A DNA stretch of 59,020 bases, taken from positions 1-59,020 of the forward strand of contig DATKXS010000184.1 of the NCBI GenBank assembly GCA_035528895.1. The letters run 5' to 3'. Positions 5,856 to 29,432 of the stretch are shown one piece after another. Both the position numbers and the translations under genes were made by a program. The DNA comes from Candidatus Desulfaltia sp. (lineage in GTDB: Bacteria; Acidobacteriota; Aminicenantia; Aminicenantales; UBA8522). Under the pieces are notes generated by a model. The model was given only the letters and a program-made list of their open reading frames with translations. It was not told the origin of the DNA and searched no databases. Positions within the stretch are counted from its first letter, which is position 1; each line of letters begins with the position of its first letter.

Positions 5856-5865
5856 TCTGTTTCCT

Positions 5866-8009: not shown

Positions 8010-8016
8010 GCGCTCT

Positions 8017-15853: not shown

Positions 15854-16402
15854 TCAGTCTTTCCGTCCGGACGACCGGCCGAAGGCAAAGAGGTCTCCCG
15901 CCCGGAAGATATCCCGCTGGACAGCGCTCATCGGCTCCAGCGAAAAGGCCTGTTTCTTGCTCAGGTTATGCCCTCGGCCGTTCAGGAAATCGACCTCGAC
16001 CTCATCGCCCGTCTCCATCTTCCGTCCAGCTACGAGTGAATCGAGCTCGACACACCTCAGGATGGGAAGCCCGGAATTGACGGCGTTCCGGAAATAGATC
16101 GATGAATAGGAAGGAGCCAGGATGACGCCGACCTTCAGGGCGGTGAAACAGTCCACGGCCTGCTGGCGTGAGGAGCCGGCACCGAAGTTCCTTCCGGCGA
16201 CGACGATGTCTCCGGGATTGGCCTTTTTTGGGAAATCCTTCCAACCTTCAAGGTTTCCCAGGGCATATTGCCCCATCTCGGCGATTTCGGTGATGTGCAG
16301 GAAGGGGTTGTGGAAGATCTGGTCGGTATCGATGTCTTCAATCAGCCTTCCGGACCCATCGGCGAGAACCCAGACGCGGCCGCGGTGAGTTGATTTATCC
16401 AT
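15854..16402 (-). CDS. leuD: LeuD/HacB-type dehydratase small subunit, copy 1 (divergent)
   Basis: DIDTDQI, GDIVVAGRNFGAGSSRQQA and IYFRNAVNSGLP. Start MDKSTH at 16402. Confidence 0.85.
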   Translation of the reverse strand: MDKSTHRGRVWVLADGSGRLIEDIDTDQIFHNPFLHITEIAEMGQYALGNLEGWKDFPKKANPGDIVVAGRNFGAGSSRQQAVDCFTALKVGVILAPSYSSIYFRNAVNSGLPILRCVELDSLVAGRKMETGDEVEVDFLNGRGHNLSKKQAFSLEPMSAVQRDIFRAGDLFAFGRSSGRKD

Positions 16403-16403
16403 G

Positions 16404-17654
16404 TCACAGATCCTCCAGTCCGGCGATGTGCCCCAGGACACAGGAAGCGGCCACGACGGCGGGGCCGGCCAGGTAGGTCCGGCCCTTCCCCTGCTTTCCG
16501 GGAAAGTTGCGGTTCCCCGTGCTGATCTGGACCTCTCCCCGGCCCGTCAGTCCGACGTGGCCCTCGGCGCAGCCGCCGCAGCCGGGATTGACGACGATGG
16601 CGCCGGCCTCGAACAGGTCCTGCAGAATCCCCTTGGCCAGGAGCTCCTTGTAGACGCGGCGGGTCGCCGGGACGATCTTGAGCATGATGCCTTTCCTGAC
16701 GCCGCGGCCTTTTAGGATATGGGCCGCGACGGCGAAATCCTCGACCCGGCCGTTGGTGCAGGAGCCGATAAACCCCGAGTCGATCTTCGTCCCGCCAAGC
16801 TCGGTCACGGTCTTAACGTTGGCCGGAGAGGGCGGCGCCGCCACCTGAGGAGGAAGTCCCTGGAGGTCGATCTCGATCGTCTCGGCATAACCGGCATCCT
16901 TGTCTGCCACCAAGGGAGAGAAAGGAACTCCGGAGAACGCTTCGCTCTCTTCCCTGGCCGCCGGGCTGCATTCCGGGATGAATCCGATGATCCCGGCCAT
17001 CTCCGTCACCATGCTGCAAAGCGTCAGGCGGCCGGCCAGCGAAAGTCCGGCGACCGCGGGCCCGTAGAATTCGGCCGAGCAAAGGGCGATCTTCTTTGTC
17101 CCCAGCTCTTTCAATAGATACAACGTCAGATCTTTCGCCGAAGTCGGCGGTTTGAACGTTCCTTTCAGCACGACCTTGACGCTCTCCGGCACCTCGAACC
17201 ACGTCCGGCCGGTGCGGAAGGCGAAGGTGATGTCAACATCGCCCATTCCCTGGCCGAAGGTGCCGAGCGCACCCAAGATGTTCATGTGGCTGTCCGTGCC
17301 GACGACCGTACCGTTGGTTCGAGCCAACCCTTCCTCCATCAGGACATGGGTGCCGATGCCGCTATCCACGTCGTAAACCTCCACTCCGTACTTCCGGGCG
17401 AAGTCGCGGCAAACCTGTTGATTATCCGCATATTTGAGGGTGCAGGCCGGGGCGCAGAGGTCGAAGGTGAAGAACGTCTTGGCCTTGTCCGCGAGGGGGA
17501 GCCCCGCATATTCCCGCTCGTAGTTTTTGACAACATTAGGGCCCCCGAAATCCCGGGCCGAGCGGATGTCCAGGTCCATCCAGACGATCTTCCCCGGCGC
17601 GACCTCGTCGGCCGTGTGGGCCTGGATGATCTTTTCGATGACCGTTTTTCCCAT
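16404..17654 (-). CDS. leuC: LeuC/HacA-type aconitase-family dehydratase large subunit, copy 1 (divergent)
   Basis: GTDSH, GSCTNGR, PGCGGC and STGNRNFPGKQG. The three Fe-S cysteines are present. Confidence 0.88.
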   Translation of the reverse strand: MGKTVIEKIIQAHTADEVAPGKIVWMDLDIRSARDFGGPNVVKNYEREYAGLPLADKAKTFFTFDLCAPACTLKYADNQQVCRDFARKYGVEVYDVDSGIGTHVLMEEGLARTNGTVVGTDSHMNILGALGTFGQGMGDVDITFAFRTGRTWFEVPESVKVVLKGTFKPPTSAKDLTLYLLKELGTKKIALCSAEFYGPAVAGLSLAGRLTLCSMVTEMAGIIGFIPECSPAAREESEAFSGVPFSPLVADKDAGYAETIEIDLQGLPPQVAAPPSPANVKTVTELGGTKIDSGFIGSCTNGRVEDFAVAAHILKGRGVRKGIMLKIVPATRRVYKELLAKGILQDLFEAGAIVVNPGCGGCAEGHVGLTGRGEVQISTGNRNFPGKQGKGRTYLAGPAVVAASCVLGHIAGLEDL

Positions 17655-17668
17655 CCGCGGTGCTCCTG

Positions 17669-18784
17669 TCAGAGTCTGTCCGCCACGGCCCGGGCAACGT
17701 CGAGAGTCGTCGAAGTCCCGCCCATGTCATAGGTGCGGACCTTCCCCTCCTTGATGACCGCGGCGATGGCCTCTTCCAGGCGCCTTCCCTTTTCGGCCTC
17801 GCCCAGCCACTCGAGCATCATCTTGGCGGCCAGGAAAGTGGCCAGGGGGTTGACCTTGTACATCCCGGCGTACTTGGGCGCGGAGCCGTGGGTCGGCTCG
17901 AAGACGGCATACTTATCGCCGATGTTCCCGGCCGAGGCGAACCCCAGCCCGCCGACGAGCTGGGCGCTGAGGTCGGAGATGATATCGCCGAAGAGGTTCT
18001 CGGCGACCAAGACGTCGTAATCATGCGGGTTCTTGACCAGCCACATGCACATGGCATCCACGTTGGCTTCCTTGAGGGGGATCCCGGGGTATTCCTTGGC
18101 AACGGCCCGGGCGATGTCCAGCATCAGCCCGCCCGTCTCCCGGAGCACATTGGGCTTCTCGACGATGGTGACCGAGCGGCGCTTGAACTCGCGGGCGTAT
18201 TCGAAGGCCGCCCGGACGATCCGGGTGCAGCCTTTTTTGGTCATGATCCGGGTGGATATGGCGATCTCGTCGAGAGGAGTCTCCTTGAAGGCCTTCATCT
18301 TGGGATGGACGAGCAGCGCGTCCCGGACCGCCTGGGGCAACGGATGGAACTCCACCCCGGCGTACATGCCCTCGGTGTTCTCCCTGAAGATCACCAGGTC
18401 AATATTGTCCCGGTAGTTCAGCGGGTTCCCGGGAAAGGCTTTGCAGGGCCGGCGGTTGGTGTAGAGGTCGAACTCCTGGCGGAGCCTGACGATCGGGCTG
18501 AAATAGGAAAGTCCTTTGCCCTTGAGCGAGGGATCGAGCTCGGCGGCGGCGTCCTCCTTCGGCTTCGAGGTGATGGCGCCGAAGAGGCAGACGTCGGTCT
18601 CCTTGAGCATCTTGATGGTGCGGTCGGGAAGAGCGTTTCCCTCCTTACACCAGAATTCCCAGCCGATGTCAGCGTAGACATATTCTGCGTCCACGGCCAG
18701 CTTGTTGAGGACCATCATGGCCGCTTCGATGACGTCCCCTCCCACACCGTCTCCGGGCAACACGGCGATCTTGTACTTAGCCAT
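17669..18784 (-). CDS. Isocitrate/homoisocitrate/isopropylmalate dehydrogenase family protein
   Basis: IAVLPGDGVG, RENTEGMY, NLFGDIISD and EPTHGSAPKYAG. Confidence 0.92.
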   Translation of the reverse strand: MAKYKIAVLPGDGVGGDVIEAAMMVLNKLAVDAEYVYADIGWEFWCKEGNALPDRTIKMLKETDVCLFGAITSKPKEDAAAELDPSLKGKGLSYFSPIVRLRQEFDLYTNRRPCKAFPGNPLNYRDNIDLVIFRENTEGMYAGVEFHPLPQAVRDALLVHPKMKAFKETPLDEIAISTRIMTKKGCTRIVRAAFEYAREFKRRSVTIVEKPNVLRETGGLMLDIARAVAKEYPGIPLKEANVDAMCMWLVKNPHDYDVLVAENLFGDIISDLSAQLVGGLGFASAGNIGDKYAVFEPTHGSAPKYAGMYKVNPLATFLAAKMMLEWLGEAEKGRRLEEAIAAVIKEGKVRTYDMGGTSTTLDVARAVADRL

Positions 18785-18840
18785 ATTCAGCTCCTTTCAT
18801 GGGCAGCAAAAATGTAGCATATTTACCCGAAAAGAGGAAG

Positions 18841-18974
18841 AAAAATGGGGACGGGCCAAAGAAATGGGGGCCAGCCAAAAAAATGGAGACGGGTCATTTT
18901 TTTTAATATCCCTCTCCCTTGATGGGAGAGGGTGGAGGGAGAGGGTGAAAAAAAATAGAACCGTCCCCATTTTT
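18841..18974. repeat. Composite REP-like palindrome
   Basis: Perfect 14-bp IR AAAAATGGGGACGG / CCGTCCCCATTTTT. It encloses tandem degenerate copies and the hairpin CCCTCTCCC-ttgat-GGGAGAGGG at 18910-18932. Confidence 0.75.
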
Positions 18975-19033
18975 CTCATCTTTACACCGGGCAAAGATTT
19001 CCATACAATGACCGCACGCACAGGAGGTCGCAG

Positions 19034-20287
19034 ATGAAAAAACGAAAATTGGGCGTCGGCATCATCGGCGGAGGTTTCGTCGCCGGGTTTCATATCCGTT
19101 CCTGGGTCGGCGTCCGCGATGCGGATATTTTGGGGATCTATGACCCCGACAGGAAAAGGGCCGAAGAGGCGGTCGGCATCGCCCGGAAGCTCGAGGTGGG
19201 TGACGCCAAGTCCTACAAGTCGATCACCGATATGATCGCTGATCCCAGGATCGACGCCATCTGGATCTGCGCCCCGAACTTCACCCGGCTGGAAGTCACT
19301 GAAGAGATCGTCCACGCTTTAGAGAAAGGGAAAGGGGACCTGACCGGCGTCTGCTGCGAGAAGCCGCTCGGCCGGAACGTCAAGGAGGCGCGCCGGATGT
19401 TGGAGCTTGTCAGGAAAGCGAAGCTTCTCGACGGCTACCTGGAAAACCAGGTCTTCGCGCCGGCTGTCGTGCGGGGCAAAGGCATCATCTGGGCCCGTGG
19501 GGCGACTCTATCAGGGCGTCCGTATCTCGCCCGGGCGGCCGAGGAGCACAGCGGACCGCACATGCCCTGGTTCTGGGAAGGCTCCCTCCAGGGTGGCGGT
19601 GTGCTTAACGACATGATGTGTCATTCCGTCGAAGTGGCCCGCTTCCTGCTGACCCCGCCCGGGGCGCCGCGGGGCGTGCTGACACCCGTTAAAGTCAACG
19701 CCTACGCCTCCTGCCTGAAATGGCAGAACCCGGAATACGCCAAGGTCCTCCGCGATCAGAGCGGCGGCAAGACCGATTATCTCAAGCGGCCGGCCGAGGA
19801 CTTCGCCCGCTCCCTCATCGAATACAGGGACGAGAAGGGAAACGTGGTCGTCGTCGAGACGACGACCTCTTGGTGCTATGTCGGTGCCGGATTGCGTCTG
19901 AGCATGGAGCTCCTCGGGCCCGAATACGCCCTCCAGATCAACACCCTCGACGCCGGGCTCAAGGTCTTCTTCAGCCGGAAGGTCAAGGGGAAGGCCGGGG
20001 AGGACCTGGTGGAGAAACAGAACGCCGAGGTCGGCCTCATGCCCGTGGTGGCCGATGAGGAAAACGAGTACGGCTACCAGGCGGAGGACCGGCACATGGT
20101 CCAGTCTTTCCTCAAGGGCGCGCGTCCGAACGAGAATTTCGACGACGGCCTCAACGTGACCGAGCTTCTGATGGCCGCCTACATGAGCGCCGAGCGGGAT
20201 AAGACCCTGGCCTTCCCACCGCCGGGGTTGGCGAACTTCATTCCGGCCGTCGCGCAGGGAACCTGGAACCCGAAGAGCAGCAGATAA
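19034..20287 (+). CDS. Gfo/Idh/MocA family oxidoreductase
   Basis: GVGIIGGGFVAGFH Rossmann motif, CEKPLG and GGGVLNDMMCH. Confidence 0.9.
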   Translation: MKKRKLGVGIIGGGFVAGFHIRSWVGVRDADILGIYDPDRKRAEEAVGIARKLEVGDAKSYKSITDMIADPRIDAIWICAPNFTRLEVTEEIVHALEKGKGDLTGVCCEKPLGRNVKEARRMLELVRKAKLLDGYLENQVFAPAVVRGKGIIWARGATLSGRPYLARAAEEHSGPHMPWFWEGSLQGGGVLNDMMCHSVEVARFLLTPPGAPRGVLTPVKVNAYASCLKWQNPEYAKVLRDQSGGKTDYLKRPAEDFARSLIEYRDEKGNVVVVETTTSWCYVGAGLRLSMELLGPEYALQINTLDAGLKVFFSRKVKGKAGEDLVEKQNAEVGLMPVVADEENEYGYQAEDRHMVQSFLKGARPNENFDDGLNVTELLMAAYMSAERDKTLAFPPPGLANFIPAVAQGTWNPKSSR

Positions 20288-20358
20288 GGAATCTGGAGCC
20301 GGGGCGCGGTCAAGAAAACGACGATCCAGGGCTTGACCTAAGAGCTGCGGCGATTCTC

Positions 20359-20556
20359 TCAAGAAGACTTTGGAACACTGTTCACCACTCTGGCGATTTT
20401 AAGGTCTATTTCCAATCCGGATAGGACGTTTTTAGGGGGGAGCACCCCCAGCAGGATCGCCTCGTTATACATGGCCTCGACAAGGCGGAAATTCTCCAAA
20501 ATATCGACCTTTTCTGATCGAATGATCTCCAGTTCAAATTTTTGAGTCGTCCTCAT
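20359..20556 (-). CDS. Small hypothetical protein, putative antitoxin-like partner of a nucleotidyltransferase
   Basis: MRTTQKFELEIIRSEKVDILENFRLVEAMYNEA..GLEIDLKIARVVN. The AT-richer segment overlaps a truncated second ORF (GTG at 20378). The family assignment is from memory only. Confidence 0.5.
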   Translation of the reverse strand: MRTTQKFELEIIRSEKVDILENFRLVEAMYNEAILLGVLPPKNVLSGLEIDLKIARVVNSVPKSS

Positions 20557-20639
20557 ATGTATATATATGCATGTTTTATGCATTTATATCAAGGCCAGAA
20601 AAAATGGCTCTTCATGGCTCTGCTGCCACCCCGCAGGCC

Positions 20640-20750
20640 AAAGATCCCCCTCCTCCCCACCTCCTCCCACCAGGGGAGGAGGGTTTGGGGTGGACAGTTT
20701 GTTCCTTCCCCCTTTGTTCTTTCACTTTTGTTCCTTCCCTTTAGACTTTG
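20640..20750. repeat. REP-like hairpin plus short direct repeats
   Basis: CCTCCTCCC-accag-GGGAGGAGG hairpin and two copies of TTTGTTCCTTCCC. Confidence 0.5.
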
Positions 20751-20821
20751 AGAGGAAGAGAGGTGGGGGAATCTCCTAAGTAACAACGCCAATAAAAGAC
20801 GACGGAAAAACAATATGATTC

Positions 20822-21316
20822 TCAGCGGCCGGAGGCCAGCTTCTTTTTCGTATGCTCGATTAGGCCGCCGGCCTCGATGATGCCGATGACCGACTCGGGA
20901 AGCGGGAAGAATTTGAAGACGCGGCCGCCCGAGATGATCTTCCCTCCCGCGAAGTCAATTTCGACCTCGTCGCCCGTCTTCAGCGCATCCGACGCCTCCT
21001 CGCACTGGAGAACGGCTAACCCCAAATTAATAGCATTTCGAAAATAGATCCGCGCAAACGACTTGGCGACTACAGCCTGGACTCCCGCCGCCCTCAGGCA
21101 CGCCGCCGCCTGCTCCCGCGAGCTCCCGCAGCCGAAATTCTTTCCTCCCACGACCACATCGCCGGGCTTGACGTTCCTAGCGAAATCGGGATCGAGGTCT
21201 TCCATGGCGTGCTTGGCCATTTCGGCCGGCTCCATGATCTTGTAGGTGTACCGCCCCGGAAAAATGACGTCGGTGTTGACATCGTCCCCGTACTTCCAAA
21301 CGCGTCCTTTGCTCAT
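20822..21316 (-). CDS. leuD: LeuD/HacB-type dehydratase small subunit, copy 2
   Basis: [33 protein letters not shown] and [14 protein letters not shown]. Confidence 0.93.
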
Positions 21317-22566
21317 CGGTGTTTCCTCGGGTCAGTGATCTTGCCTTCGAGCGCGGAGGCGGCAGCTGTAGCCGGAGAAGCCAGGTAGATCTCGGAGTCT
21401 CGGTTTCCCATCCGGCCCCGGAAATTCCGGTTCGAAGTGCTGACCACGACCTCGCCCGCCGCCAGCAGGCCCTCGTGGGCGCCGAGGCAGGGCCCGCATC
21501 CGGGGTTGAGAATGACGCATCCCGCTTCGGATAAGATTTCGAGCAGGCCTTTCCGCATAGCTTCAACATAAACTTCCCGCGATGCGGGGAGCACGAGCGC
21601 CCGGACGCCCGGATGGACCTTTTTCCCTTTCAGGATCCCGGCCGCGACCTCGAAGTCCTCCAGGCGGCCGTTCGTGCACGTCCCGATGAGTGCCTGGTGG
21701 AAGGGCTTGCCCTCGACTTCGCGAACGGGCTTGACGTTGTCCACGGTATGAGGGCAGGCGACCTGCGGCTCGAGCACAGACAGGTCATATTTCAGAATCG
21801 CCTCGTACTTGGCATCTTTATCTGACCGGACAACCTCGTAATCGGCCCGGGCCCGCGCCTTCACCCACTCGAGCGTCTTCTCGTCCGGCTCGAAATAGCC
21901 GTTTTTGGCCCCCATCTCGGCGGCCATGTTGGCCAGGACCATGCGCGAGGCCAGGCTGAAATCCCCGGCCGCCAGACCGGCGAATTCGACGGCCTCGTAG
22001 TTCGCCCGGTCGGCGCCGTTATCGCCGATGACCTTGAGGATGACGTCCTTGGCATAAACGCCGGCCGGTAGCTTCCCGGAAAACTCGATCCGCAGCGTTT
22101 CCGGCACGCGCAGCCAGATTTCGTCTGTTGCCCAAATCGAGGCCGCTTCGGTCCGGCCGATCCCGGCCGCGAACGCCCCGAAAGCCCCGTAGGTCGTGGT
22201 ATGGGAATCGCTCCCGACGATGAGCTTTCCGGGAAGGGCGAAGCTCGCCTCGCTCAGGACCTGGTGGCAGACGCCGTGCTGGATGTCGAAGAAATTGGGC
22301 AGGCCCTGGACAGCCACGAACTCGCGGATGGTCTTGTGGTTCTGGGCGTACTTCTCGTCGGCCGCCGGGACGATGTGGTCGAGGATGATGACCAGCTTCC
22401 CGGGCGCCTTGACACGCTCCACGCCCAGTTTCTTGAACTCGCCGATGATGGCGGCCGAGTTGTCGTGGGAAAGGCAGTAGTCGGGAGCGACGGTCACGAC
22501 CTCGCCGGCGCTGACCTCTTTGCCGGCCTTCTTGCCGAGGATCTTTTCCGAGAATGTCTTGCCCAC
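21313..22566 (-). CDS. leuC: LeuC/HacA-type aconitase-family dehydratase large subunit, copy 2
   Basis: LSHDN, LDHIVP, GSDSHT, GTCTNGR, PGCGPCLG and NRNFRGRMG. GTG start with an AGGAGG RBS. Confidence 0.93.
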   Translation of the reverse strand: MGKTFSEKILGKKAGKEVSAGEVVTVAPDYCLSHDNSAAIIGEFKKLGVERVKAPGKLVIILDHIVPAADEKYAQNHKTIREFVAVQGLPNFFDIQHGVCHQVLSEASFALPGKLIVGSDSHTTTYGAFGAFAAGIGRTEAASIWATDEIWLRVPETLRIEFSGKLPAGVYAKDVILKVIGDNGADRANYEAVEFAGLAAGDFSLASRMVLANMAAEMGAKNGYFEPDEKTLEWVKARARADYEVVRSDKDAKYEAILKYDLSVLEPQVACPHTVDNVKPVREVEGKPFHQALIGTCTNGRLEDFEVAAGILKGKKVHPGVRALVLPASREVYVEAMRKGLLEILSEAGCVILNPGCGPCLGAHEGLLAAGEVVVSTSNRNFRGRMGNRDSEIYLASPATAAASALEGKITDPRKHR

Positions 22567-22595
22567 TCTTCCCCTCCTTAACCTTTCCCTACTCA

Positions 22596-22895
22596 GGAGA
22601 ATGAGGATTTGGGCAAGTTAGCCCATTTGTTTTTCCAAGGGTGAGGGATGTATGGTGAGAAGTCCGTATGAGCGACGAGCGGGTACTCCTTATTGCGGCA
22701 AGGCGAGAGGCAGTGGCATGAGAAACCCGTATGAGGAGTGAGCGGGCACGATTTCTCGATCGCAGGGAGAGAAGAGCGAACGACGAATCGAGCCCGTTTT
22801 CCGCGCTGGGAGAAAACGGGCGCGGTTTCGATGCCACTATCTCGAGCCTTCCGCTCAGTCTTTGACGGGCTGACTTAACCAAATCCTCATTCTCC
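22596..22895. mobile_element. MITE (non-autonomous insertion element), 300 bp
   Basis: 28-bp terminal IRs, perfect for the first 17 bp: GGAGAATGAGGATTTGG..AAGT.AGCC / GGCT.ACTT..CCAAATCCTCATTCTCC. No transposase inside. It lies between two co-oriented genes. Confidence 0.8.
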
Positions 22896-22896
22896 C

Positions 22897-23430
22897 TTAA
22901 CCCTTGAGCACATCGAAGTTGACGAAGTCGGCGTGGTTGACGATGATGGCCTCGACCGTCCGGCGCGACCCATCCCCTTCTTTGGAATGGGCGGCGATGA
23001 TGTGGACGACCTCCTGGGGAAGGCCGTGGGCGAAAGCAAATGCCGCCCCGGAGATGGGATGGCGCAGCAGCTCTCCTTCCCGGCTCTTGACGAACTCCCC
23101 CTTCTCCCGCTTGTATTCGAAGAGCTTGCCGACGTCATGAAGGATGGCTCCGGAAAGAAGATGATCGCGGTGGATGGCGATCTTGCCCGGGTACTCCGCC
23201 AGCAGGACCTCGGCGATCTTCAGGGCCGCCAGGGTGACGGCCCGGGTGTGGGTGATGAGGTTGACATCGGTGTGCTTGATCAAGAGCGTGAAGGGCATCT
23301 CGGCTAAATCCTTAATCCCCCAGCCGGCCCGCTCCATCGCCTCCACCCAAACCTTGATGGTCTTCTCCCGAAGCTCCGCGTCCTTGATAAGCTGGAGCTC
23401 GGGCAGCAGCGCCTCCAATTGCTTTCTCAT
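22897..23430 (-). CDS. HD-domain (HDIG-like) metal-dependent phosphohydrolase
   Basis: THTRAV, AILHDVGKLFEY, HPISGA, IIAAH and HADF. ATGA-coupled to the citryl-CoA lyase gene. Confidence 0.88.
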   Translation of the reverse strand: MRKQLEALLPELQLIKDAELREKTIKVWVEAMERAGWGIKDLAEMPFTLLIKHTDVNLITHTRAVTLAALKIAEVLLAEYPGKIAIHRDHLLSGAILHDVGKLFEYKREKGEFVKSREGELLRHPISGAAFAFAHGLPQEVVHIIAAHSKEGDGSRRTVEAIIVNHADFVNFDVLKG

Positions 23431-24206
23431 GGGATCTCTCTTTCTCCCGGCCCGTCGTACTCATGGTCGGACGGGTGGATCTTGCGCATGGGCTTCATCC
23501 TGGTCTTCTCTTCCTGGATGTGGGCGACGAGTCCCGGCACCCGGGATATGATGAAGAAGGCGTTGCCGATCTCGGCCGGGATGCCGAGATCGCAGAGCAG
23601 GGCAGCTATGGCGCCGTCCACGTTGATCGGCAGCGGCTTGCCGCTCTCCCTGAATATCTTTTCGACGATCCGGGCGATGCGGACGTAGCGGCCGGCCAGT
23701 TTCAGCTCTTCCGCCATGGCGAAGAGCTTCTCTGTTCGGGGGTCCTGGGTGTGGACGCGGTGGCCGAACCCGGAAGCGCGCTCGCCCCTCGTTCTCATCT
23801 CGGCCAGGATCTCCTGGGCCGCTTCTTCTACCGTGATCTTCATCTCTTCCGTCCGCTTGGAGATGGCCTGGAAGAGCTTCATCCCCTCCTCGATGGCCCC
23901 GCCGTGGAGGCGGGAGATGGCCAGCACCCCGGCCGCGATGGCGGCATGGAGCTCGGCCCCGGTCGAGGCGACGGTGCGGGCAGCAAGGACCGACGGCGGA
24001 CCGGCGCCGTGGTCGACCGAGGAAACGAAGACAGCGTCGAGGAGCTTCCCGACCTCGGGCGAAGGCAACTCGCCCTTGAGGACAAGGTAGATCGCCTGAG
24101 AAAAGGTGATCTTTCCCATCAGCTGGTCGATGGGATAGCCGCGCAGCTGGACCTTATTCGGCTGGACGCTGGTGATTCCGGTTTTCCAATGAAGATCTTC
24201 GGCCAT
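23427..24206 (-). CDS. ccl: Citryl-CoA lyase (citrate-synthase-fold, Ccl-like)
   Basis: WKTGIT..LRGYPIDQL, SVDHGAGPPS, LHGGAIE, GFGHRVHTQDPR, INVDGA and SRVPGLVAH. About 260 aa, the small-domain type. Confidence 0.85.
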   Translation of the reverse strand: MAEDLHWKTGITSVQPNKVQLRGYPIDQLMGKITFSQAIYLVLKGELPSPEVGKLLDAVFVSSVDHGAGPPSVLAARTVASTGAELHAAIAAGVLAISRLHGGAIEEGMKLFQAISKRTEEMKITVEEAAQEILAEMRTRGERASGFGHRVHTQDPRTEKLFAMAEELKLAGRYVRIARIVEKIFRESGKPLPINVDGAIAALLCDLGIPAEIGNAFFIISRVPGLVAHIQEEKTRMKPMRKIHPSDHEYDGPGEREIP

Positions 24207-24216
24207 TGTCTTTCCC

Positions 24217-25125
24217 TCACTGACTCTGGATCGATCCGGCAAGCTCCTTGGCCTTGACGGGAATATCGGAGATCGCCTCGACGACGTGCGCGCCGACCTC
24301 GCGCAGCCTCCTCACCTTGGTTTCGTGGGAGCCGCGCGAGCCTTCGACGATGGCCCCGGCATGGGAGAAGCGCGTCCCCGACTTGGCCGCTTTGCCGCCG
24401 ATGTAGGCGATGAGGGGTTTGGTGAACCGGCCGCTTTCGATCAGGTCGGCCACCCGCTCCTCCTGGGACGTCCCGATCTCCCCGAACATCACGGCCATCT
24501 TCGTCTCCGGGTCCTCCTCGAAGAGCACCATGATCTCGGGATGGGAGAGGCCGATGACGGCGTCTCCGCCGACATGGACGATGGTGCTCTGGCCCAGGCC
24601 GGCCTGGGTGAGATAATAGGAGATGGCCGAGGTCATGCCGCCGCTCCGGGAGCTGACGCCCACAAACCCGGGCCTGAACCATTCCTTGGCCCGCTCGGCG
24701 CGTCCGCCGATCATCCCCAGGACCGCTTTGCCCGGGCTGACCAGGCCGAGGGTGTTGGGGCCGACGAAACGCGCGCCTTTCTCGGCGGCCCGGGCGGCGA
24801 TCTCCAGGACGTCATGGATGGGCACGCGGTCGGGGACGATGACGAGAAGCTTCACTCCCGCGTCGATGGCCTCGAGAGCGGCTCCCCTGACCAGGGCGGC
24901 GGGGACGAAGATGACGCTGACGTCCATCGACCCCTGTTTCTCCCAGGCCTGGAGCACGGAATCATAGACCGGGATGCCGTAAACATCCTGGCCGCCGCGG
25001 CCGGGCGTCACTCCGGCGATGACTTTCGTCCCGTAATCCTTCATCAACTGCGCCCGGACCATGCCCTCCCGGCCGGTGATGCCCTGGATGATGACCCGCG
25101 ACTTCTCATTCACCAAGATGGCCAT
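24217..25125 (-). CDS. sucD: Succinyl-/citryl-CoA synthetase alpha-type (SucD/CcsB-like) subunit
   Basis: IQGITGREG, GVTPGRGG, GPNTLG, SRSGGMT, GEIGTSQEE and the phospho-His motif RFSHAGAI. Confidence 0.85.
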   Translation of the reverse strand: MAILVNEKSRVIIQGITGREGMVRAQLMKDYGTKVIAGVTPGRGGQDVYGIPVYDSVLQAWEKQGSMDVSVIFVPAALVRGAALEAIDAGVKLLVIVPDRVPIHDVLEIAARAAEKGARFVGPNTLGLVSPGKAVLGMIGGRAERAKEWFRPGFVGVSSRSGGMTSAISYYLTQAGLGQSTIVHVGGDAVIGLSHPEIMVLFEEDPETKMAVMFGEIGTSQEERVADLIESGRFTKPLIAYIGGKAAKSGTRFSHAGAIVEGSRGSHETKVRRLREVGAHVVEAISDIPVKAKELAGSIQSQ

Positions 25126-25190
25126 GATATTTGATCTCTTTGCTCTCCGTTATTCATTGTTCTTATTCTTATTATGTTCTATGTGAGTTA

Positions 25191-26756
25191 TCAGGTTTCC
25201 CTTTTGACGGCGATGATCTTGTCTCTATACTCTTTGAGTCCGGGGATGGGAAGACGGATGACGATCGCGTCCTGTTCGTGGAACTTGCAGAAAATTTCGC
25301 AGGCCAGACATTCAGTGCACTTGCCTTTCTTGGCCTCCTCCGGAGAGACGGCTAAAACCGGCTTCCCGTCCTCGATCTTCAAGATCTTGGGAAGGCAGGC
25401 CGGGACGCAGCCCTTGGTCCGGCAATCCGCGCATTTGACATGGTCGAAGGAGATGCGGCCGGTGACCGTCTCGAAGACATAGGCTTTCTCGGGAACCGCG
25501 GGTTCGACGATCGGCCGCACTTCATGGCGCCCGTCCGGATTCTTCGCTACCAGCTCTTCGAGCCGGCGGGCGCAGAATTCGGGCGTATCGTCACGACCGT
25601 ACCCCTCGACGACACCCGGGATTTCCTTCAAATAAGTCTGCAGGATCCAGATCGCCCTTTCTTCGAAATTCCCGCCCAGCCGGATGACCGCGGGGATGGC
25701 CAGTCGCTCCTCCTGGAAGGCCTTGACCAGGCCGCGCGCCGAATGGAACTGCTCCTGGCTGGCGACCCCCGATCCCGAGGCGAAATAGCCCCTGATCCCG
25801 GGCTGGGAGAGGATGATCTTGGCGGCCCGGTAGACCTTGCTGGCCGGAGGGTTGCCGCTCGTGTCGCAAAAATTGGCCAGCTTGAACCCGCGGTTTAGGA
25901 CCGCGTCCATCGACATCATCGACCCGCCGCCACCGGCGCCATGGAAGCCGATGTATTTCTCGTTAGCGGCCGTTTGTTCGACCATCTGGAAGAAGTAGAA
26001 GGTCCCGCGGTAGTCTTTTTCCTCGACCCGGTAGGCGATCTTCTCCAGCTCGGTCGGCGGCCGGTCGAACTCCCGCGCCACCTCGATCCCGAACTCGGGA
26101 TGGCGGTAAACAGCATAGTCATCGATGATAAGGTGACAGTCGGCGGCGAACAGATTTCCCTCTGCCGTGAGGACAAGAGGGTTGATCTCGGCCGAGCGGG
26201 CGTCACTCGAGCGGGCGATTTTATAGAGCTTGGTCAGGAGATCGGACAGCTTCGGCAGGAGCGCGCCCTCGATCCCCACCCGGAGGAGCATGTTCCGCGC
26301 GTCGTACTCAGGAAATCCCTTGAGGACGTCGATAGTCTGGCGGGCGACTTTTTCCGGATGGAGGCGGGCGATCTCCTCCACGCCGGTGCCTCCGACCGGG
26401 CTGAAGATGAGAAGCGGCCGTTTGGAAGCGTCATCGATGACCACCCCGGTGAAATACTCGGCCTGGATGTCCAATTTTTCTTCCACCAGGATCCGGTCGA
26501 CGACGAAATTCTTGACCTTCATCCCCAGGAGCCCGCGGGCCTTGGTTTCCACCTCCTCGGGTGTGGCGGCAAACTGGATCCCGCCGACCCCCGCCCGTCC
26601 GGTCACCCAGACCTGGATCTTGAGGACAACCGGCCGGCCGATCGTCTCGGCGATGCCGCGGGCTTCCTCGGGGGTGGAAGCCACACCTCCCGCCGGGACA
26701 GGAATGCCCCCTTGCTTCAGCAGCTTCTTGCCCTGGTACTCGAACAGTCTGGCCAT
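25191..26756 (-). CDS. sucC: Succinyl-/citryl-CoA synthetase beta-type (SucC/CcsA-like) ATP-grasp subunit fused to a C-terminal 2x[4Fe-4S] ferredoxin-like domain
   Basis: LFEYQGKKLL, GRAGVGGI, EINPL, GAGGGGSMMSMD and DTSGNPP. C-terminal CADCRTKGCVPAC and CTECLACEIFC. Confidence 0.85.
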   Translation of the reverse strand: MARLFEYQGKKLLKQGGIPVPAGGVASTPEEARGIAETIGRPVVLKIQVWVTGRAGVGGIQFAATPEEVETKARGLLGMKVKNFVVDRILVEEKLDIQAEYFTGVVIDDASKRPLLIFSPVGGTGVEEIARLHPEKVARQTIDVLKGFPEYDARNMLLRVGIEGALLPKLSDLLTKLYKIARSSDARSAEINPLVLTAEGNLFAADCHLIIDDYAVYRHPEFGIEVAREFDRPPTELEKIAYRVEEKDYRGTFYFFQMVEQTAANEKYIGFHGAGGGGSMMSMDAVLNRGFKLANFCDTSGNPPASKVYRAAKIILSQPGIRGYFASGSGVASQEQFHSARGLVKAFQEERLAIPAVIRLGGNFEERAIWILQTYLKEIPGVVEGYGRDDTPEFCARRLEELVAKNPDGRHEVRPIVEPAVPEKAYVFETVTGRISFDHVKCADCRTKGCVPACLPKILKIEDGKPVLAVSPEEAKKGKCTECLACEIFCKFHEQDAIVIRLPIPGLKEYRDKIIAVKRET

Positions 26757-26894: not shown

Positions 26895-27743
26895 TCACTC
26901 GATCCAGATCTTGATGATCCGGGTTTTGTCATCCCGGGGCCGGATCTCGATGATGTTTCCCCTAATCCGGGTCAGTTGATGGACGATCTTGTCCAGGTCA
27001 TACCCTTCGGCCCTTAAAGCGGCCTTGTCCTTTTCCGGGATGGCCTGAAAAGCCAGGTCCGCCAGCGCCCAGGGGATATTGAGCGAAAACACGGGCTCTC
27101 TCTGCCCTTCGACGACGACGGTGATCCTAAGGGCTCTGGCCCTCCCCCGCTCTTCCTGGTCCTCGATATGTTTCAGGGCGTCAGGAGATATCCTCAATAG
27201 TGCGATCTTCGCCCTATCCCTGAGTTCCTTGTCGCCCTCCTCGACGATGATCCTCTCCAGCACCGGAATGGCCTGGACGGCGATCTGTTTATCCTTCAGC
27301 AGGCTCAGTTTGAAGGCGGCGTAATACCGGATGACGCGGTTGGGATTTTCCAGGCGCTGCTCGATTTCGTCCAGGTAGTCCTCCTCATCGTCCTTATAAA
27401 GCTCATAGGCGAGGTCGATGATGGAGGATTCCGCCTCCTCGGCCAGGCTGTCGTTTCTCCGCTTGCCCGAAAGATAATCCTTGTACGCCTCGATGGCTTC
27501 TTCCTCGTGGCCCTTTCGCCTGGCCAGACACTGGGCCCTGTAGAAGGTCGCCTGGGGGAGCAGAGAGCTTTCGGGATAGTCGTGCAGGAGATCTTCGAAC
27601 TTCTCCTGGGCGTCTTCCCATTTCTCGTCGAAGAAGAGAAGCTTGGCCTCCTGGAAGAGCTTCTCATCCGAAGACTCCTGGGCGGTCGCCCGGACGCAGA
27701 CGAGACCCGCCAGGATGATTATGATAAGGGCTGTTTTTCTCAC
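26895..27743 (-). CDS. Exported TPR/HEAT-repeat protein associated with the ECF sigma locus
   Basis: Signal peptide. BamD-like TPR (AQEKFEDLLHDYPES..ATFYRAQC) followed by HEAT-like helices. Confidence 0.7.
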   Translation of the reverse strand: MRKTALIIIILAGLVCVRATAQESSDEKLFQEAKLLFFDEKWEDAQEKFEDLLHDYPESSLLPQATFYRAQCLARRKGHEEEAIEAYKDYLSGKRRNDSLAEEAESSIIDLAYELYKDDEEDYLDEIEQRLENPNRVIRYYAAFKLSLLKDKQIAVQAIPVLERIIVEEGDKELRDRAKIALLRISPDALKHIEDQEERGRARALRITVVVEGQREPVFSLNIPWALADLAFQAIPEKDKAALRAEGYDLDKIVHQLTRIRGNIIEIRPRDDKTRIIKIWIE

Positions 27744-27744
27744 C

Positions 27745-28542
27745 TTATGCCTCGCTTTCCTGGAGCTCTTTCTTCAAAAGCTTTATTTTCAAGAGAATGT
27801 TTTTTTCCTCGATCATGTTTTGGATTCCCCGGCACTGAGCGGGAGTCAGGCTCTCGCTGACCTGGGCGAGCTCGAAGAACAACATCTCGATCTGGTCGCA
27901 GATGGCCTTGGCCTTGGCCATCCGGGCCTTCTCGAGCTGGGGATTCAGGTACTTTTTCTTGGACAGCAGTTCCCTGGTCTCGCGCGCCGCGGCCTTGCTC
28001 AGGCGACAATCCCCGCTTTCGGTTTGAGTCTGGGCCAGTTCCAGCAGCACGTACTGGCTCTTGTCCAGGTAGTCCAGGATTTCCCGGCGGGCGAACTCCT
28101 GGTCGATACGGCCCAGAAACTCGTTGCTGGCGAAAAACGCCTCGGCTGGCGGCTTCTCCAGCACTCCACTGCGATAAACGACGAACATGGCCGCCGCTCC
28201 GACCATGATCCCGAGGAGGAGGCCGGCGAGAACGGGCTTGAACCGGGGCCCGAACAGGCACACCCGCTCCCGTCTCGGCTCTATCTGCGGCCGCACCTTT
28301 TCATCCCAGACTGCGCTCACGATCTTCTCCGCCTGGGCGTCCCAATCGATGCCGGCCAGCACGGACTTCATCTCCCGGCCCAGCGAATCGGCGTTCTCCA
28401 GGATCCCCTCCAGGGCCTTGAACTCCTTGGCGCAGGCCGGGCAGGAGTCGAGATGCCGCTTGATGTTTTCTCGGTCGCGTTCGCTCATTTCTCCTCCCCA
28501 ATAGGCCGCGAGATCTCGCCTTAGGCGCCGGCATTCGTTCAT
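27745..28542 (-). CDS. Zinc-finger (zf-HC2/ZAS) transmembrane anti-sigma factor
   Basis: HLDSCPAC (HxxxCxxC) and a single TM helix. Overlaps the sigma gene stop. Confidence 0.88.
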   Translation of the reverse strand: MNECRRLRRDLAAYWGGEMSERDRENIKRHLDSCPACAKEFKALEGILENADSLGREMKSVLAGIDWDAQAEKIVSAVWDEKVRPQIEPRRERVCLFGPRFKPVLAGLLLGIMVGAAAMFVVYRSGVLEKPPAEAFFASNEFLGRIDQEFARREILDYLDKSQYVLLELAQTQTESGDCRLSKAAARETRELLSKKKYLNPQLEKARMAKAKAICDQIEMLFFELAQVSESLTPAQCRGIQNMIEEKNILLKIKLLKKELQESEA

Positions 28543-29141
28543 GGTTGCATCCCCAGCTGCGGGCTCAGCCAGTGTTTGAGGTTCCGGACGGCCTTGAAAT
28601 GAAGGGATTTGACCGTCCCCACGGAGATCCCCATGATCTGGGCGATCTCCCTGTACTCGAGCCCGTTGTAGTGTCTCATCACGAAGATCAGCCGCTGCCT
28701 CTCCCCCAATCGCTCGAGGCAGAGAGAAATGACCCGGCGCAGTTCCGAGGACGCCGGGTTGGAGCGGTAATCTCCGGCCGCCAGGTTAAGATCCTCGACG
28801 CTCCGGCCGCTCTCTAGTTCCCGGCGCCGGCCGTGATGCTTCCGGAAATAATCGATACTGATGTTCTTGGCGATCTGAAGGAGCCAAGCCTGGAAATTCC
28901 TCTCCTTCTCGTATATGTCGAGCTTCTGATAGAGCCTCATGAAAGTCTCCTGAACGACGTCTAGGGCGTCTTCTCGGTTCCGCAGGATGGAATAGGCCAA
29001 GAGGAAGACTTTCTGCTGATAGAGGCTGACGATGTCCTTGAAGGCCTGCCGGTTGCCCTCGACGGCTCTTTCGAGCAGAATCCGGATGTCTTCATTGTTC
29101 GTCGTCCTGGTTTCTTCCATTCTCGGTCTATCGGCTATCAT
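28539..29141 (-). CDS. ECF RNA polymerase sigma factor
   Basis: DALDVVQETF, FQAWLLQIAKN, region-4 HTH (YREIAQIMGISVGTVKS). The start could be 29120. Confidence 0.93.
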   Translation of the reverse strand: MIADRPRMEETRTTNNEDIRILLERAVEGNRQAFKDIVSLYQQKVFLLAYSILRNREDALDVVQETFMRLYQKLDIYEKERNFQAWLLQIAKNISIDYFRKHHGRRRELESGRSVEDLNLAAGDYRSNPASSELRRVISLCLERLGERQRLIFVMRHYNGLEYREIAQIMGISVGTVKSLHFKAVRNLKHWLSPQLGMQP

Positions 29142-29432
29142 AGCGCCGTCGGATGGTGAAGTCATCCTGCACCTGAACGGCGGTAAGCGTTGCGGGCGGA
29201 CGCTTTTCCATGTTCATTCCTGACCTCACCTGGGCGCTTCACAGACTTCTACGAACGGATTCGGACAAAGGTTCACCGGCCGGGGCGGAAAGCCGGGAAA
29301 ATCGCTCCCCGGCCACGTCCAGGCAACCGGGATTCAGACCGGCAGGGGAAGGCAAGAACGCAGAATCCTCCCCTCTCTGGAACCTGCTCCCGGGGATTTC
29401 CAGAAAAGGGAAACGAAAGGGTGAAACTTATA

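What the first reader, a model, noticed from the sequence alone, without database searches (positions are those of the whole stretch)
25191..25460. 2x[4Fe-4S] ferredoxin domain fused to an acyl-CoA synthetase beta subunit
Seen: the C-terminal ~85 aa carry CxxCxxxxCxxxC (CADCRTKGCVPAC) and CxxCxxCxxxC (CTECLACEIFC). Established: SucC and CcsA are non-redox enzymes with no Fe-S domain. The ligase domain reads GAGGGGS..DTSGNPP instead of SucC's NGAGLAM..DVGGG, and this resembles citrate-activating enzymes as I recall them. Inference: the domain is a redox/O2 sensor gating the ligase, or an electron carrier for a partner step.
Basis: partly seen in the sequence, partly recalled or inferred. Interest (0 to 1): 0.75.

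Follow-up and report, generated by a model that had tools for sequence, protein, structure and literature searches.

The report
Iron-sulfur module on CoA ligase
The ATP-binding subunit of a succinyl-/citryl-CoA-synthetase-like enzyme in this Aminicenantes genome carries a conserved eight-cysteine ferredoxin-type domain; in related enzymes the same module is a small separate gene, so a whole branch of enzymes thought to need no redox cofactor seems to have an undescribed iron-sulfur component whose job is unknown.

Summary
ORF 25191-26756 (-) encodes a 521-aa SucC/CcsA-like beta subunit. Its last ~97 residues carry CADCRTKGCVPAC and CTECLACEIFC.

**Not a frameshift.**
- 119 of the 120 nearest relatives keep both motifs.
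- All 80 best species-level genome loci keep both motifs, and 78 of them show the ligase signature in the same open frame.

**Ferredoxin homology.**
- Only Fer4-clan Pfam models match the tail, all below their cut-offs, so databases do not annotate it.
- The best solved-structure matches are ferredoxin subunits.
- In the full-length AlphaFold model the tail scores pLDDT about 81-95, apart from the last residue.

**Evidence for real [4Fe-4S] ligation.** One large lineage (93 of 114 proteins) has lost motif-1 Cys 1-3 and motif-2 Cys 4. It keeps the other four, which are the ligand set of one cluster in a clostridial ferredoxin.

**A separate gene in relatives.** Four of four short sister enzymes examined encode the same module as an 84-103-aa gene directly after beta. 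Alpha follows that small gene in the two contigs that can be read that far.

**Cluster-independent role.** A Cys-less lineage keeps the domain, next to an alpha::citryl-CoA-lyase fusion.

The only constant partner is the alpha subunit, so the module belongs to the ligase itself. Its role, whether structural, redox or O2 gating, or electron transfer, remains inferred. The protein is not an orthologue of the characterised CcsA. I found no publication describing it.

The parts
25191..26756 (-). Whole gene: 521-aa SucC/CcsA-like beta subunit with a C-terminal ferredoxin-like module (stop codon 25191-25193)
   Evidence: ORF list and translation. Pfam ATP-grasp_2 E 4e-52. PDB 3ufx_B 5.4e-73 and 6hxq_B 1.5e-40. 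AlphaFold mean pLDDT 90.7.
26124..26756 (-). ATP-grasp nucleotide-binding part (residues 1-211)
   Evidence: PF08442 matches residues 4-195 and PF13549 residues 4-211. E190 in the EINPL motif is invariant in alignment A2.
25548..26123 (-). CoA-ligase-type C-terminal domain (residues 212-403). It holds the CcsA-like insert (FDRPPTELEKIAY...), GAGGGGS, DTSGNPPAS and the family-specific loop GSGVASQEQ.
   Evidence: HMMER alignment to CcsA 6hxq_B and to Thermus SucC. Weak PF16114 Citrate_bind match at residues 273-320. These columns are nearly invariant in A2.
25485..25547 (-). Variable Pro-rich linker (residues 404-424) between the ligase and the ferredoxin-like module
   Evidence: Alignments. 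Short sister proteins end about here.
25194..25484 (-). Ferredoxin-like module (residues 425-521): beta-hairpin, two beta-alpha-beta units with the eight Cys, and a C-terminal helix
   Evidence: Fer4_9, Fer4_6 and Fer4_7 are the best-scoring Pfam matches, all below their cut-offs. Profile versus PDB: OGOR ferredoxin subunit 8ys5_D E 0.004, then MvhB and NdhI. Secondary structure and 10-residue pLDDT blocks of 81-95 in the full-length model, 53 for the last residue.
25395..25433 (-). Cys motif 1, CADCRTKGCVPAC (C442, C445, C450, C454)
   Evidence: Sequence. Each Cys is at least 90% conserved in A2.
25287..25319 (-). Cys motif 2, CTECLACEIFC (C480, C483, C486, C490)
   Evidence: Sequence. Conserved in A2 and A3. 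The pattern C[TIV]ECLACE recovers 523 confirmed loci in species genomes.
24217..25125 (-). SucD/CcsB-like alpha subunit (302 aa) with the SHAGA phosphohistidine motif. It is the only constant genomic partner of the beta-Fd gene.
   Evidence: PF02629 and PF00549. NF004230 290.6 bits, below the 336 cut-off. Adjacent to beta in all 12 related loci; in the more distant contexts it is adjacent or separated by one gene.
23427..24242 (-). Citryl-CoA-lyase-type short citrate-synthase homologue (271 aa); overlaps the alpha gene by 26 nt
   Evidence: NF004869 citryl-CoA lyase 282.4 bits, cut-off 212. PF00285, C-terminal part only.
22897..23430 (-). HD-domain protein (177 aa), overlapping ccl by 4 nt; conserved in the operon
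   Evidence: PF01966. Synteny in L017, L023, L024, L026, L027 and L117.
20822..22566 (-). LeuC/LeuD-type (aconitase/homoaconitase family) isomerase, pair A
   Evidence: PF00330 and PF00694; NF001614 570 bits.
15854..18784 (-). Isocitrate/isopropylmalate-dehydrogenase-family gene (17669-18784) and LeuCD-type pair B (15854-17654), the downstream end of the conserved cluster
   Evidence: PF00180, PF00330 and PF00694. Same gene order in L023, L024, L026 and L027.

Best explanation
The gene encodes the beta (ATP-grasp) subunit of an ADP-forming acyl-CoA synthetase. The enzyme belongs to a branch of the SucCD/CcsAB/ACL superfamily that has a third, iron-sulfur component. Here that component is fused to the C-terminus of beta. 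In sister enzymes it is an 84-103-aa protein encoded directly after beta and, where the contigs reach, before alpha.

The module is a bacterial-type dicluster ferredoxin fold that most likely binds two [4Fe-4S] clusters through C442/C445/C450+C490 and C480/C483/C486+C454.

With its alpha subunit and the adjacent citryl-CoA lyase, the enzyme most likely does one of two things. It either activates citrate (or a close tri- or dicarboxylate analogue) with ATP and CoA and cleaves it to acetyl-CoA plus a 2-oxoacid, or it runs the same steps backwards with ATP gain. Aconitase-type and isocitrate-dehydrogenase-type enzymes of the same operon feed or drain this step.

Neither the ligase nor the lyase chemistry moves electrons. 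I therefore take the module to be a built-in structural and regulatory part of the ligase, not a catalytic electron carrier: a cluster-stabilised domain that supports the beta C-terminal domain or the oligomer, and thereby ties the enzyme's stability or activity to anoxic, reducing conditions.

**Shown:** the fusion is real and conserved; the tail is homologous to Fer4-clan ferredoxins; the module occurs both fused and split; Cys loss is cluster-specific; alpha is the one constant partner.

**Inferred:** Fe-S occupancy (about 0.85), citrate-like substrate (about 0.55), structural/regulatory role rather than electron transfer (about 0.6).
For: **Real and conserved**
- 119 of 120 nearest proteins keep both motifs.
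- All 80 best species-genome loci keep both motifs; 78 show the fusion in one open frame.
- About 26 of 301 genomes of the phylum carry the long form.

**Ferredoxin homology**
- At E <= 0.01, all but one stray single-member match (UPF0506) of the 19 tails are to Fer4-clan models: Fer4_9 in 16 of 19, best Fer4_7 1.3e-6.
- All ten best PDB profile matches are ferredoxin-type proteins or subunits, for example OGOR 8ys5_D, MvhB, NdhI and Sulfolobus ferredoxin. The cysteines align in the alignments that were printed.
- In the full-length AlphaFold model the tail has pLDDT about 81-95, apart from the last residue, with beta-alpha-beta x2 secondary structure.

**Cluster ligation**
- In one lineage, 93 of 114 proteins keep exactly C454+C480/483/486 and lack C442/445/450+C490. 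That is the cross-motif ligand set of one cluster in clostridial ferredoxins (established knowledge).
- The tree needs two origins for this state.

**Third subunit**
- Four of four short sisters tested (P0134, P0278, P0138, P0143) have an aligned 84-103-aa homologue directly after beta. An alpha gene follows it in L111 and L113; L112 and L116 end before the next gene can be read.
- Fd-bearing members occur in three clades of the non-canonical radiation and never among the 51 canonical SucC rows.

**The role is tied to the ligase**
- Neighbourhoods differ: CCL+HD+LeuCD+IDH here, a CitE/HpcH-type lyase plus PrpD, no lyase. Alpha is always present.

**Cluster-independent core role**
- The Cys-less lineage P0129/P0157/P0193 keeps the domain. 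P0129 sits beside an alpha::CCL fusion, HD, an aconitase and an Iso_dh gene.

**Ligase and lyase work together**
- The alpha::CCL fusion in L117 mirrors AclA.
- CCL scores above the NCBIfam cut-off.
Against: - No biochemical evidence exists for Fe-S incorporation.
- All Pfam Fer4 scores are below the gathering cut-offs (18-21.6 versus 27 bits).
- The isolated-domain model was mediocre (pLDDT 74.7) and Foldseek found nothing with it.
- Two clusters in series are the classic electron-wire arrangement, and the nearest solved relatives are electron-transfer subunits of 2-oxoacid oxidoreductases. An electron-transfer role is therefore not excluded.
- The substrate is uncertain. The characterised CcsA falls nearest a different clade. 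The loop that reads A-N-N-T in CcsA reads A-S-Q-E here. The genome also has a canonical citrate synthase plus AcnB- and Icd-like genes, so the operon is a second set of unknown direction.
Confidence: 0.55

Rival explanations
1. Electron-transfer module. The two clusters form a wire that exchanges electrons with a partner, for example a 2-oxoacid:ferredoxin oxidoreductase that makes or consumes the acyl-CoA. The module would replace or dock like a PorD/KorD delta subunit and couple the ligase to the ferredoxin pool in a metabolon.
For: The best solved-structure match of the tail profile is the ferredoxin subunit of a 2-oxoglutarate:acceptor oxidoreductase, followed by the polyferredoxin MvhB and NdhI. 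The genome encodes four POR_N-type oxidoreductases. Two clusters in series are typical of electron relays (established knowledge).
Against: - No oxidoreductase gene is conserved next to beta-Fd genes in any of the 20 or so contexts read.
- The ligase and lyase reactions are redox-neutral.
- A large lineage keeps only one cluster, and another keeps the domain with none. That is hard to reconcile with an obligatory relay.
Confidence: 0.15
2. Purely structural domain. The clusters, if present, only hold the fold together, as in ABCE1 or endonuclease III. The domain serves as an oligomerisation or lyase-docking platform with no sensing function.
For: Cys-less relatives keep the domain at the same place. 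One of them is next to an alpha::CCL fusion in an otherwise identical operon. The module occurs with different lyases and with none.
Against: All eight Cys are strictly kept across hundreds of anaerobe species. The loss of one ligand set is clean and all-or-none in a lineage that sources label Pyrinomonadaceae, aerobic soil Acidobacteria by my knowledge. This suggests cluster content tracks lifestyle, as expected for an O2- or redox-sensitive element.
Confidence: 0.22
3. Artefact: a frameshift or assembly error has joined a beta gene to a small ferredoxin gene in this assembly.
For: In sister enzymes the module is indeed a separate small gene right after beta.
Against: The same in-frame fusion, of about the same length (514-551 aa), occurs in 119 of 120 nearest database proteins from many independent samples and in 78 of 80 species-representative genomes. 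A ~20-residue linker replaces the stop/start junction.
Confidence: 0.01
4. Zinc-binding (Cys4 x 2) domain rather than an Fe-S domain.
For: Eight Cys in two groups of four could bind two Zn ions. All Fer4 Pfam scores are sub-threshold.
Against: Zn ribbons or knuckles use the Cys of one local motif, so a whole motif would be lost together. What is observed instead is the loss of motif-1 Cys 1-3 together with motif-2 Cys 4, with retention of motif-1 Cys 4 and motif-2 Cys 1-3, in 93 of 114 proteins. That is the ferredoxin cross-ligation pattern. Apart from one stray single-member match, only Fer4-clan models match.
Confidence: 0.05

Closest known systems
Citryl-CoA synthetase CcsA/CcsB with citryl-CoA lyase Ccl of Hydrogenobacter thermophilus (PDB 6hxq for CCS)
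   Same: - Two-subunit ADP-forming ligase of the SucCD fold.
- The beta subunit has the RPPTE-type insert, GGGGS and D-x-G-G-N-P-P-A-type motifs.
- It is encoded with a SucD-like alpha and a short citrate-synthase-type lyase.
- Foldseek E 1e-33.
   Different: - CcsA (429 aa) has no ferredoxin module, and the alignment ends at query residue 337.
- The query is not in CcsA's clade: CcsA's nearest representatives are P0176, P0203 and P0230, in another 100%-supported clade. In the one neighbourhood read there (P0176), beta is followed directly by alpha.
- CcsA's A-N-N-T loop is A-S-Q-E here.
Succinyl-CoA synthetase beta subunit SucC (e.g. Thermus aquaticus 3ufx_B, E. coli 1scu_B)
   Same: Best sequence and structure match over residues 3-373 (5.4e-73; Foldseek 2.9e-42, TM 0.86 on the target). 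Same catalytic architecture, with a phosphohistidine alpha subunit.
   Different: - Scores 250 bits against the TIGR01016 cut-off of 375.
- Has a ~35-residue insert and different substrate-site motifs.
- Carries a ~118-residue linker plus ferredoxin-like tail.
- None of the 51 canonical SucC representatives has the tail.
- Most relatives that have the long form also have a separate canonical SucC.
ATP-citrate lyase AclB/AclA (Chlorobium limicola 6hxj) and human ACLY
   Same: Beta-like ATP-grasp/citrate-binding part (Foldseek E ~1e-22). In the Cys-less relative P0129 the alpha and lyase genes are fused exactly as in AclA.
   Different: No ACL or ACLY structure has a ferredoxin-like domain. Here alpha and the lyase are separate genes. 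Identity is only 17-21%.
Bacterial-type 2x[4Fe-4S] ferredoxin domains, especially the delta/ferredoxin subunits of 2-oxoacid:ferredoxin oxidoreductases (8ys5_D); by analogy of use, the Fe-S domain of the ABC ATPase ABCE1
   Same: Two Cys4 motifs with a hairpin insertion between them; beta-alpha-beta x2 secondary structure. Like ABCE1 (my knowledge), it is a dicluster domain attached to a nucleotide-dependent, non-redox enzyme.
   Different: - Motif 1 has the spacing C-x2-C-x4-C-x3-C.
- There is no Pro after the last Cys of motif 2.
- It has an extra N-terminal strand and a C-terminal helix.
- All Pfam scores are below the cut-offs.
- It is attached to a CoA ligase, an architecture I found in no solved structure and no paper.

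Membership tests
Citryl-CoA synthetase large subunit (CcsA) | SucC-like ATP-grasp plus CoA-ligase fold with the CcsA/ACLY-type insert and GGGGS / D-x-G-G-N-P-P-A motifs | tested here: met
   HMMER alignment to 6hxq_B, E 1.5e-40; the motifs align. Foldseek E 1e-33.
Citryl-CoA synthetase large subunit (CcsA) | Same clade as (orthology with) the biochemically characterised H. thermophilus CcsA | tested here: not met
   The CcsA fragment is closest to P0176, P0203 and P0230 (39-42% identity), which lie in a different 100%-supported clade. The query's 29-row clade is separate.
Citryl-CoA synthetase large subunit (CcsA) | Citrate-binding loop A-N-x-T (ACLY N346/T348; the residue roles are recalled from the ACLY-citrate structures, not tested here) | tested here: not met
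   CcsA GGTANNT aligns with the query's GSGVASQE. S333, Q334 and E335 are nearly invariant in the family.
Citryl-CoA synthetase large subunit (CcsA) | Encoded with a CcsB/SucD-like alpha subunit and a citryl-CoA lyase | tested here: met
   Alpha: PF02629 and PF00549. CCL: NF004869, 282 bits against a cut-off of 212. Synteny is conserved.
Citryl-CoA synthetase large subunit (CcsA) | ATP-dependent formation of citryl-CoA from citrate and CoA | not testable with these tools
   Needs an enzyme assay.
Succinyl-CoA synthetase beta subunit (SucC) | Score above the curated family cut-offs (TIGR01016, NF001913) | tested here: not met
   250.4 bits against 375.55, and 248.4 against 370. Pfam Ligase_CoA is not detected in beta.
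Succinyl-CoA synthetase beta subunit (SucC) | Placement among canonical SucC sequences in a tree | tested here: not met
   The canonical SucC rows (51 rows, 370-450 aa) form their own clade; the query is elsewhere.
2x[4Fe-4S] dicluster ferredoxin domain (Pfam Fer4 clan) | Two C-x2-C-x2-C-x3-C(P)-type motifs | tested here: met
   Motif 2 is canonical. Motif 1 is the variant C-x2-C-x4-C-x3-C. Both are conserved.
2x[4Fe-4S] dicluster ferredoxin domain (Pfam Fer4 clan) | Significant match to the family models above the curated cut-off | tested here: not met
   Fer4_9 scores 18-21.6 bits against a cut-off of 27. At E <= 0.01 only Fer4-clan models match the 19 tails apart from one stray single-member match; the best is 1.3e-6.
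2x[4Fe-4S] dicluster ferredoxin domain (Pfam Fer4 clan) | Cross-motif ligation (Cys 1-3 of one motif plus Cys 4 of the other bind one cluster) | tested here: met
   This is indirect evolutionary evidence. 93 of 114 proteins of one lineage have the pattern xxxC-CCCx, and the state arose twice on the tree.
2x[4Fe-4S] dicluster ferredoxin domain (Pfam Fer4 clan) | (beta-alpha-beta)x2 fold similar to solved ferredoxins | tested here: inconclusive
   Secondary structure in the confident full-length model fits. The isolated-domain model (pLDDT 74.7) gave no Foldseek match. No coordinates were available to me.
2x[4Fe-4S] dicluster ferredoxin domain (Pfam Fer4 clan) | Binds iron-sulfur clusters | not testable with these tools
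   Needs anaerobic purification with UV-vis, EPR and Fe/S analysis.

The most novel reading that the evidence does not exclude
The ferredoxin module is a redox switch. It would read the potential of the cell's ferredoxin pool (or O2) and set whether this reversible ATP-coupled ligase/lyase pair spends ATP to split citrate (or an analogue) or makes ATP while building it. If so, this would be a previously unknown three-component (beta / Fe-S gamma / alpha) class of acyl-CoA synthetases that ties a central carbon node directly to the low-potential electron economy of energy-limited anaerobes.
Probability: 0.2. Interest if true: 0.85.

Novelty: new variant of a known kind. Interest (0 to 1): 0.62.

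Why it matters
SucCD, CcsAB and ACL are textbook cofactor-free (non-redox) enzymes of central carbon metabolism. A conserved iron-sulfur third component, fused or separate, would mean that part of this superfamily is built or regulated differently. It was confirmed at 523 loci of the species-representative genome collection, and it occurs in several clades.

Pfam scores fall below the cut-offs, so the module is invisible in current annotation. These proteins are labelled 'succinyl-CoA synthetase beta', 'ATP-grasp domain-containing' or 'acetate--CoA ligase family'. Metabolic reconstructions of Aminicenantes and other uncultured anaerobes therefore treat them as ordinary SCS or CCS.

The family offers a directly testable case of Fe-S control, or Fe-S scaffolding, of an ATP-coupled C-C cleavage or condensation step. 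That step bears on reverse-TCA versus ATP-conserving citrate synthesis in energy-limited anaerobes.

Tried and rejected
1. **Frameshift or assembly artefact:** rejected by conservation.
2. **Fold search of the whole model:** returned only SCS-beta, CcsA and ACLY, covering at most ~448 alignment columns.
3. **Fold search of the isolated tail:** the model was mediocre (pLDDT 74.7) and no match had E < 3. This led nowhere.
4. **Profile search with distant long members (A1):** found only 14 proteins because the word filter saturated.
5. **The operon as the organism's only route to citrate, isocitrate or 2-oxoglutarate:** rejected. A canonical citrate synthase (C163) and AcnB- and Icd-like genes (C50) exist.
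6. **The LeuCD pairs and dehydrogenase as ordinary leucine biosynthesis:** unlikely, because no HMGL-like (LeuA/CimA/homocitrate synthase) gene is found in the 93.5%-complete genome. The true substrates remain open.
7. **A conserved oxidoreductase neighbour that would explain an electron carrier:** none found in about 20 neighbourhoods.
8. **Literature:** four full-text searches found no description of a ferredoxin domain or subunit on SCS/CCS-type ligases. The library lacks most subscription journals.
9. **Citrate-site residue roles in ACLY:** I could not confirm them from an open paper. They are cited as my own recollection.
Full report
**1. What is in the sequence**

The minus-strand ORF 25191-26756 encodes 521 aa. 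Its parts are:
- Residues 4-195 match Pfam ATP-grasp_2 (E 4e-52).
- Residues 273-320 weakly match the ACLY Citrate_bind model (25.3 bits, cut-off 26.8).
- Residues 441-491 weakly match Fer4_9 (18 bits, cut-off 27).

The eight tail cysteines are C442, C445, C450, C454 (CADCRTKGCVPAC) and C480, C483, C486, C490 (CTECLACEIFC).

The downstream genes on the same strand are:
- a SucD-like alpha subunit (24217-25125);
- a short citrate-synthase homologue that exceeds the NCBIfam citryl-CoA-lyase cut-off (23427-24242; 282 bits against 212);
- an HD-domain protein (22897-23430);
- a LeuCD-type isomerase pair (20822-22566);
- further down, an Iso_dh-family dehydrogenase and a second LeuCD-type pair.

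**2. The fusion is real**

- The 120 best database relatives (70-89% identity, 514-551 aa, 98-100% coverage, many independent metagenomes) keep both Cys motifs in 119 cases.
- A scan of species-representative genomes with the pattern C[TIV]ECLACE gave 523 confirmed loci.
- In the best 80 of these, all labelled Aminicenantes or mislabelled bins, motif 1 precedes motif 2. In 78 the ligase signature lies upstream in the same open frame.
- Within the phylum, 22 of 301 sampled genomes have a full-length long form and about four more have it split over contig ends.
- A frameshift artefact is excluded.

**3. The tail is a ferredoxin-type domain**

- Scanned alone, 16 of 19 diverse tails match Fer4_9. 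Apart from one stray single-member match (UPF0506), the other matches at E <= 0.01 are also Fer4-clan models (best 1.3e-6). All are below the gathering scores, which explains why precomputed annotations list no Fer4 domain.
- A profile of the tails finds ferredoxin-type proteins in all ten of its best PDB matches. The best is the ferredoxin subunit of a 2-oxoglutarate:acceptor oxidoreductase (8ys5_D, E 0.004), followed by MvhB, NdhI and Sulfolobus ferredoxin. The cysteines align in the alignments that were printed.
- The full-length AlphaFold model is confident: mean pLDDT 90.7, pTM 0.79, tail blocks 81-95 apart from the last residue.
- In that model the tail reads as a beta-hairpin, then beta-(Cys motif/helix)-beta, beta-(Cys motif/helix)-beta, then a C-terminal helix.
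- No solved SCS, CcsA or ACLY chain covers the tail.
- The isolated-domain model was weaker (pLDDT 74.7) and Foldseek found nothing with it, so the fold test is inconclusive.

**4. Evolutionary evidence that the cysteines ligate [4Fe-4S] clusters**

Among 50%-identity representatives, the long forms fall into three states:
- eight Cys (the majority);
- a state that keeps only C454 plus C480, C483 and C486;
- a nearly Cys-less state (P0129, P0157, P0193).

In clostridial ferredoxins, each cluster is bound by Cys 1-3 of one motif and Cys 4 of the other (established knowledge). The four-Cys state is therefore exactly the ligand set of one cluster.

A search seeded with P0275 showed this pattern in 93 of 114 full-length relatives. 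Sources label many of them Pyrinomonadaceae or Acidobacteria. The tree requires two origins of the state.

A zinc site, or chance, would not produce this cross-motif, all-or-none pattern.

**5. The module is a third subunit in sister enzymes**

I followed a lead from earlier notes of this scan and tested it here.
- Four of four short (409-427 aa) sister beta subunits, from three clades, are followed directly by an 84-103-aa ORF. An alpha gene comes next in L111 and L113; L112 and L116 end before the next gene can be read.
- This ORF aligns with the query tail from the conserved (Y/L)xF(E/D)xxTGxIxID strand to the LP...L end.
- Two of these ORFs have all eight Cys, and two have one substitution each.
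- In contrast, a member of the clade nearest the characterised CcsA has alpha directly after beta.
- On a tree of the ligase part, ferredoxin-bearing members occur in three clades of the non-canonical radiation. They never occur among the 51 canonical SucC rows.

**6. What the ligase is**

- It is not a canonical SucC. It scores 250 bits against a cut-off of 375 and sits in a separate clade.
- It is not an orthologue of H. thermophilus CcsA either.
- It shares CcsA's insert and glycine-rich motifs. Where CcsA reads A-N-N-T, it has a family-invariant GSGVASQEQ loop.
- The neighbourhood argues for an ACL-like ligase/lyase pair:
  - beta-alpha-CCL(-HD)-LeuCD-Iso_dh(-LeuCD) is conserved across several families of the phylum;
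  - in the Cys-less relative P0129 the alpha and lyase genes are fused as in AclA, again followed by HD, an aconitase and Iso_dh genes.
- Other members sit beside a CitE/HpcH-type lyase and PrpD, or beside no lyase at all. The module is therefore tied to the beta/alpha ligase and not to citrate chemistry as such.
- In this genome the pair is the only SucCD-like enzyme found.
- A canonical citrate synthase, an AcnB-like aconitase, an Icd-like gene and four 2-oxoacid:ferredoxin oxidoreductases exist elsewhere. No LeuA/CimA/homocitrate-synthase-type gene is found.
- The operon is therefore a second tricarboxylate module whose direction and exact substrates remain open.

**7. Mechanism**

*Shown:*
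- a conserved Fe-S-type module belongs to this ligase branch, either fused or split;
- its cysteines behave as two cross-ligated cluster sites;
- alpha is the only constant partner;
- the fold persists without cysteines in one lineage.

*Inferred:*
- The module is a built-in structural and regulatory part of the ligase. It would be a cluster-stabilised domain that makes activity or stability depend on anoxic, reducing conditions. It would not be a catalytic electron carrier, because ligase and lyase chemistry is redox-neutral and no redox partner is conserved nearby.
- Rivals are an electron-transfer link to 2-oxoacid oxidoreductases (0.15), a purely structural scaffold (0.22), a Zn site (0.05) and an artefact (0.01).

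**8. Novelty**

Four full-text searches found no description of a ferredoxin domain or subunit on SCS/CCS/ACL-type ligases. The library is incomplete.

Earlier AI notes of this scan describe the same family in other genomes. They agree with my reading but are not independent evidence. I re-tested their main claims here.

I class this as a new variant of a known kind: a SucCD/CcsAB-type ligase with an integral Fe-S component.

Noticed in passing
window 15854-26756; whole genome G000: The 93.5%-complete genome has no HMGL-like gene (LeuA, CimA or homocitrate synthase). Its only LeuCD-type pairs and one of its two Iso_dh genes sit in this operon. Canonical citrate synthase (C163:22005-23141), an AcnB-like 897-aa ORF (C50:~20766-21866) and a truncated Icd-like gene at the end of contig C50 exist elsewhere. 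The operon therefore looks like a second tricarboxylate or 2-oxoacid module. The CCL/ligase pair could stand in for a LeuA-type condensing enzyme.
   Followed up: partly
whole genome G000 versus relatives: This genome has only one SucC/SucD-like pair, the ferredoxin-bearing one. Most relatives with the long form also have a canonical ~390-aa SucC. This could be true loss or the missing 6.5% of the assembly.
   Followed up: partly
window 19034-20287 (+): A GFO/IDH/MocA-family oxidoreductase gene lies on the opposite strand in the middle of the otherwise co-oriented operon. tblastn with this protein found no match in the 12 related loci, where LeuD_A is followed directly by the Iso_dh gene (L023, L026, L027).
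   Followed up: no
window 26895-29165 (-): A TPR/HEAT-repeat protein, an anti-sigma-like protein and an ECF-type sigma-like gene lie upstream of the ligase operon. They keep this neighbourhood in two relatives of the same order (L026, L027).
   Followed up: no
window 22567-22896: A 330-nt gap lies between the HD gene and LeuC_A, whereas the other operon genes overlap or nearly abut. In relatives this gap is only 13-40 nt.
   Followed up: no
L117 (ENA ERZ27280192 contig), 1876-8447: A relative whose ferredoxin-like tail has lost nearly all Cys sits in an operon with alpha fused to the citryl-CoA lyase (566 aa, AclA-like), HD, a single-chain aconitase (663 aa) and Iso_dh. It is a natural 'Rosetta stone' linking ligase and lyase.
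   Followed up: partly
P0148, L111 small ORF (3239-3517), L112 small ORF (2470-2781): Single-ligand substitutions occur in otherwise complete modules. Motif-1 Cys 4 is Asp in P0148, motif-2 Cys 1 is Asp in the L111 ORF, and motif-2 Cys 2 is Thr in the L112 ORF. These could be Asp-ligated or [3Fe-4S] variants.
   Followed up: no
L028/L029 (one-cluster lineage, P0275): In the four-Cys lineage, beta and alpha are separated by a 403-aa CpeT/DUF3598-like gene and followed by DUF1838 and SnoaL-like genes. There is no lyase, so the context differs completely from the Aminicenantes operon.
   Followed up: no
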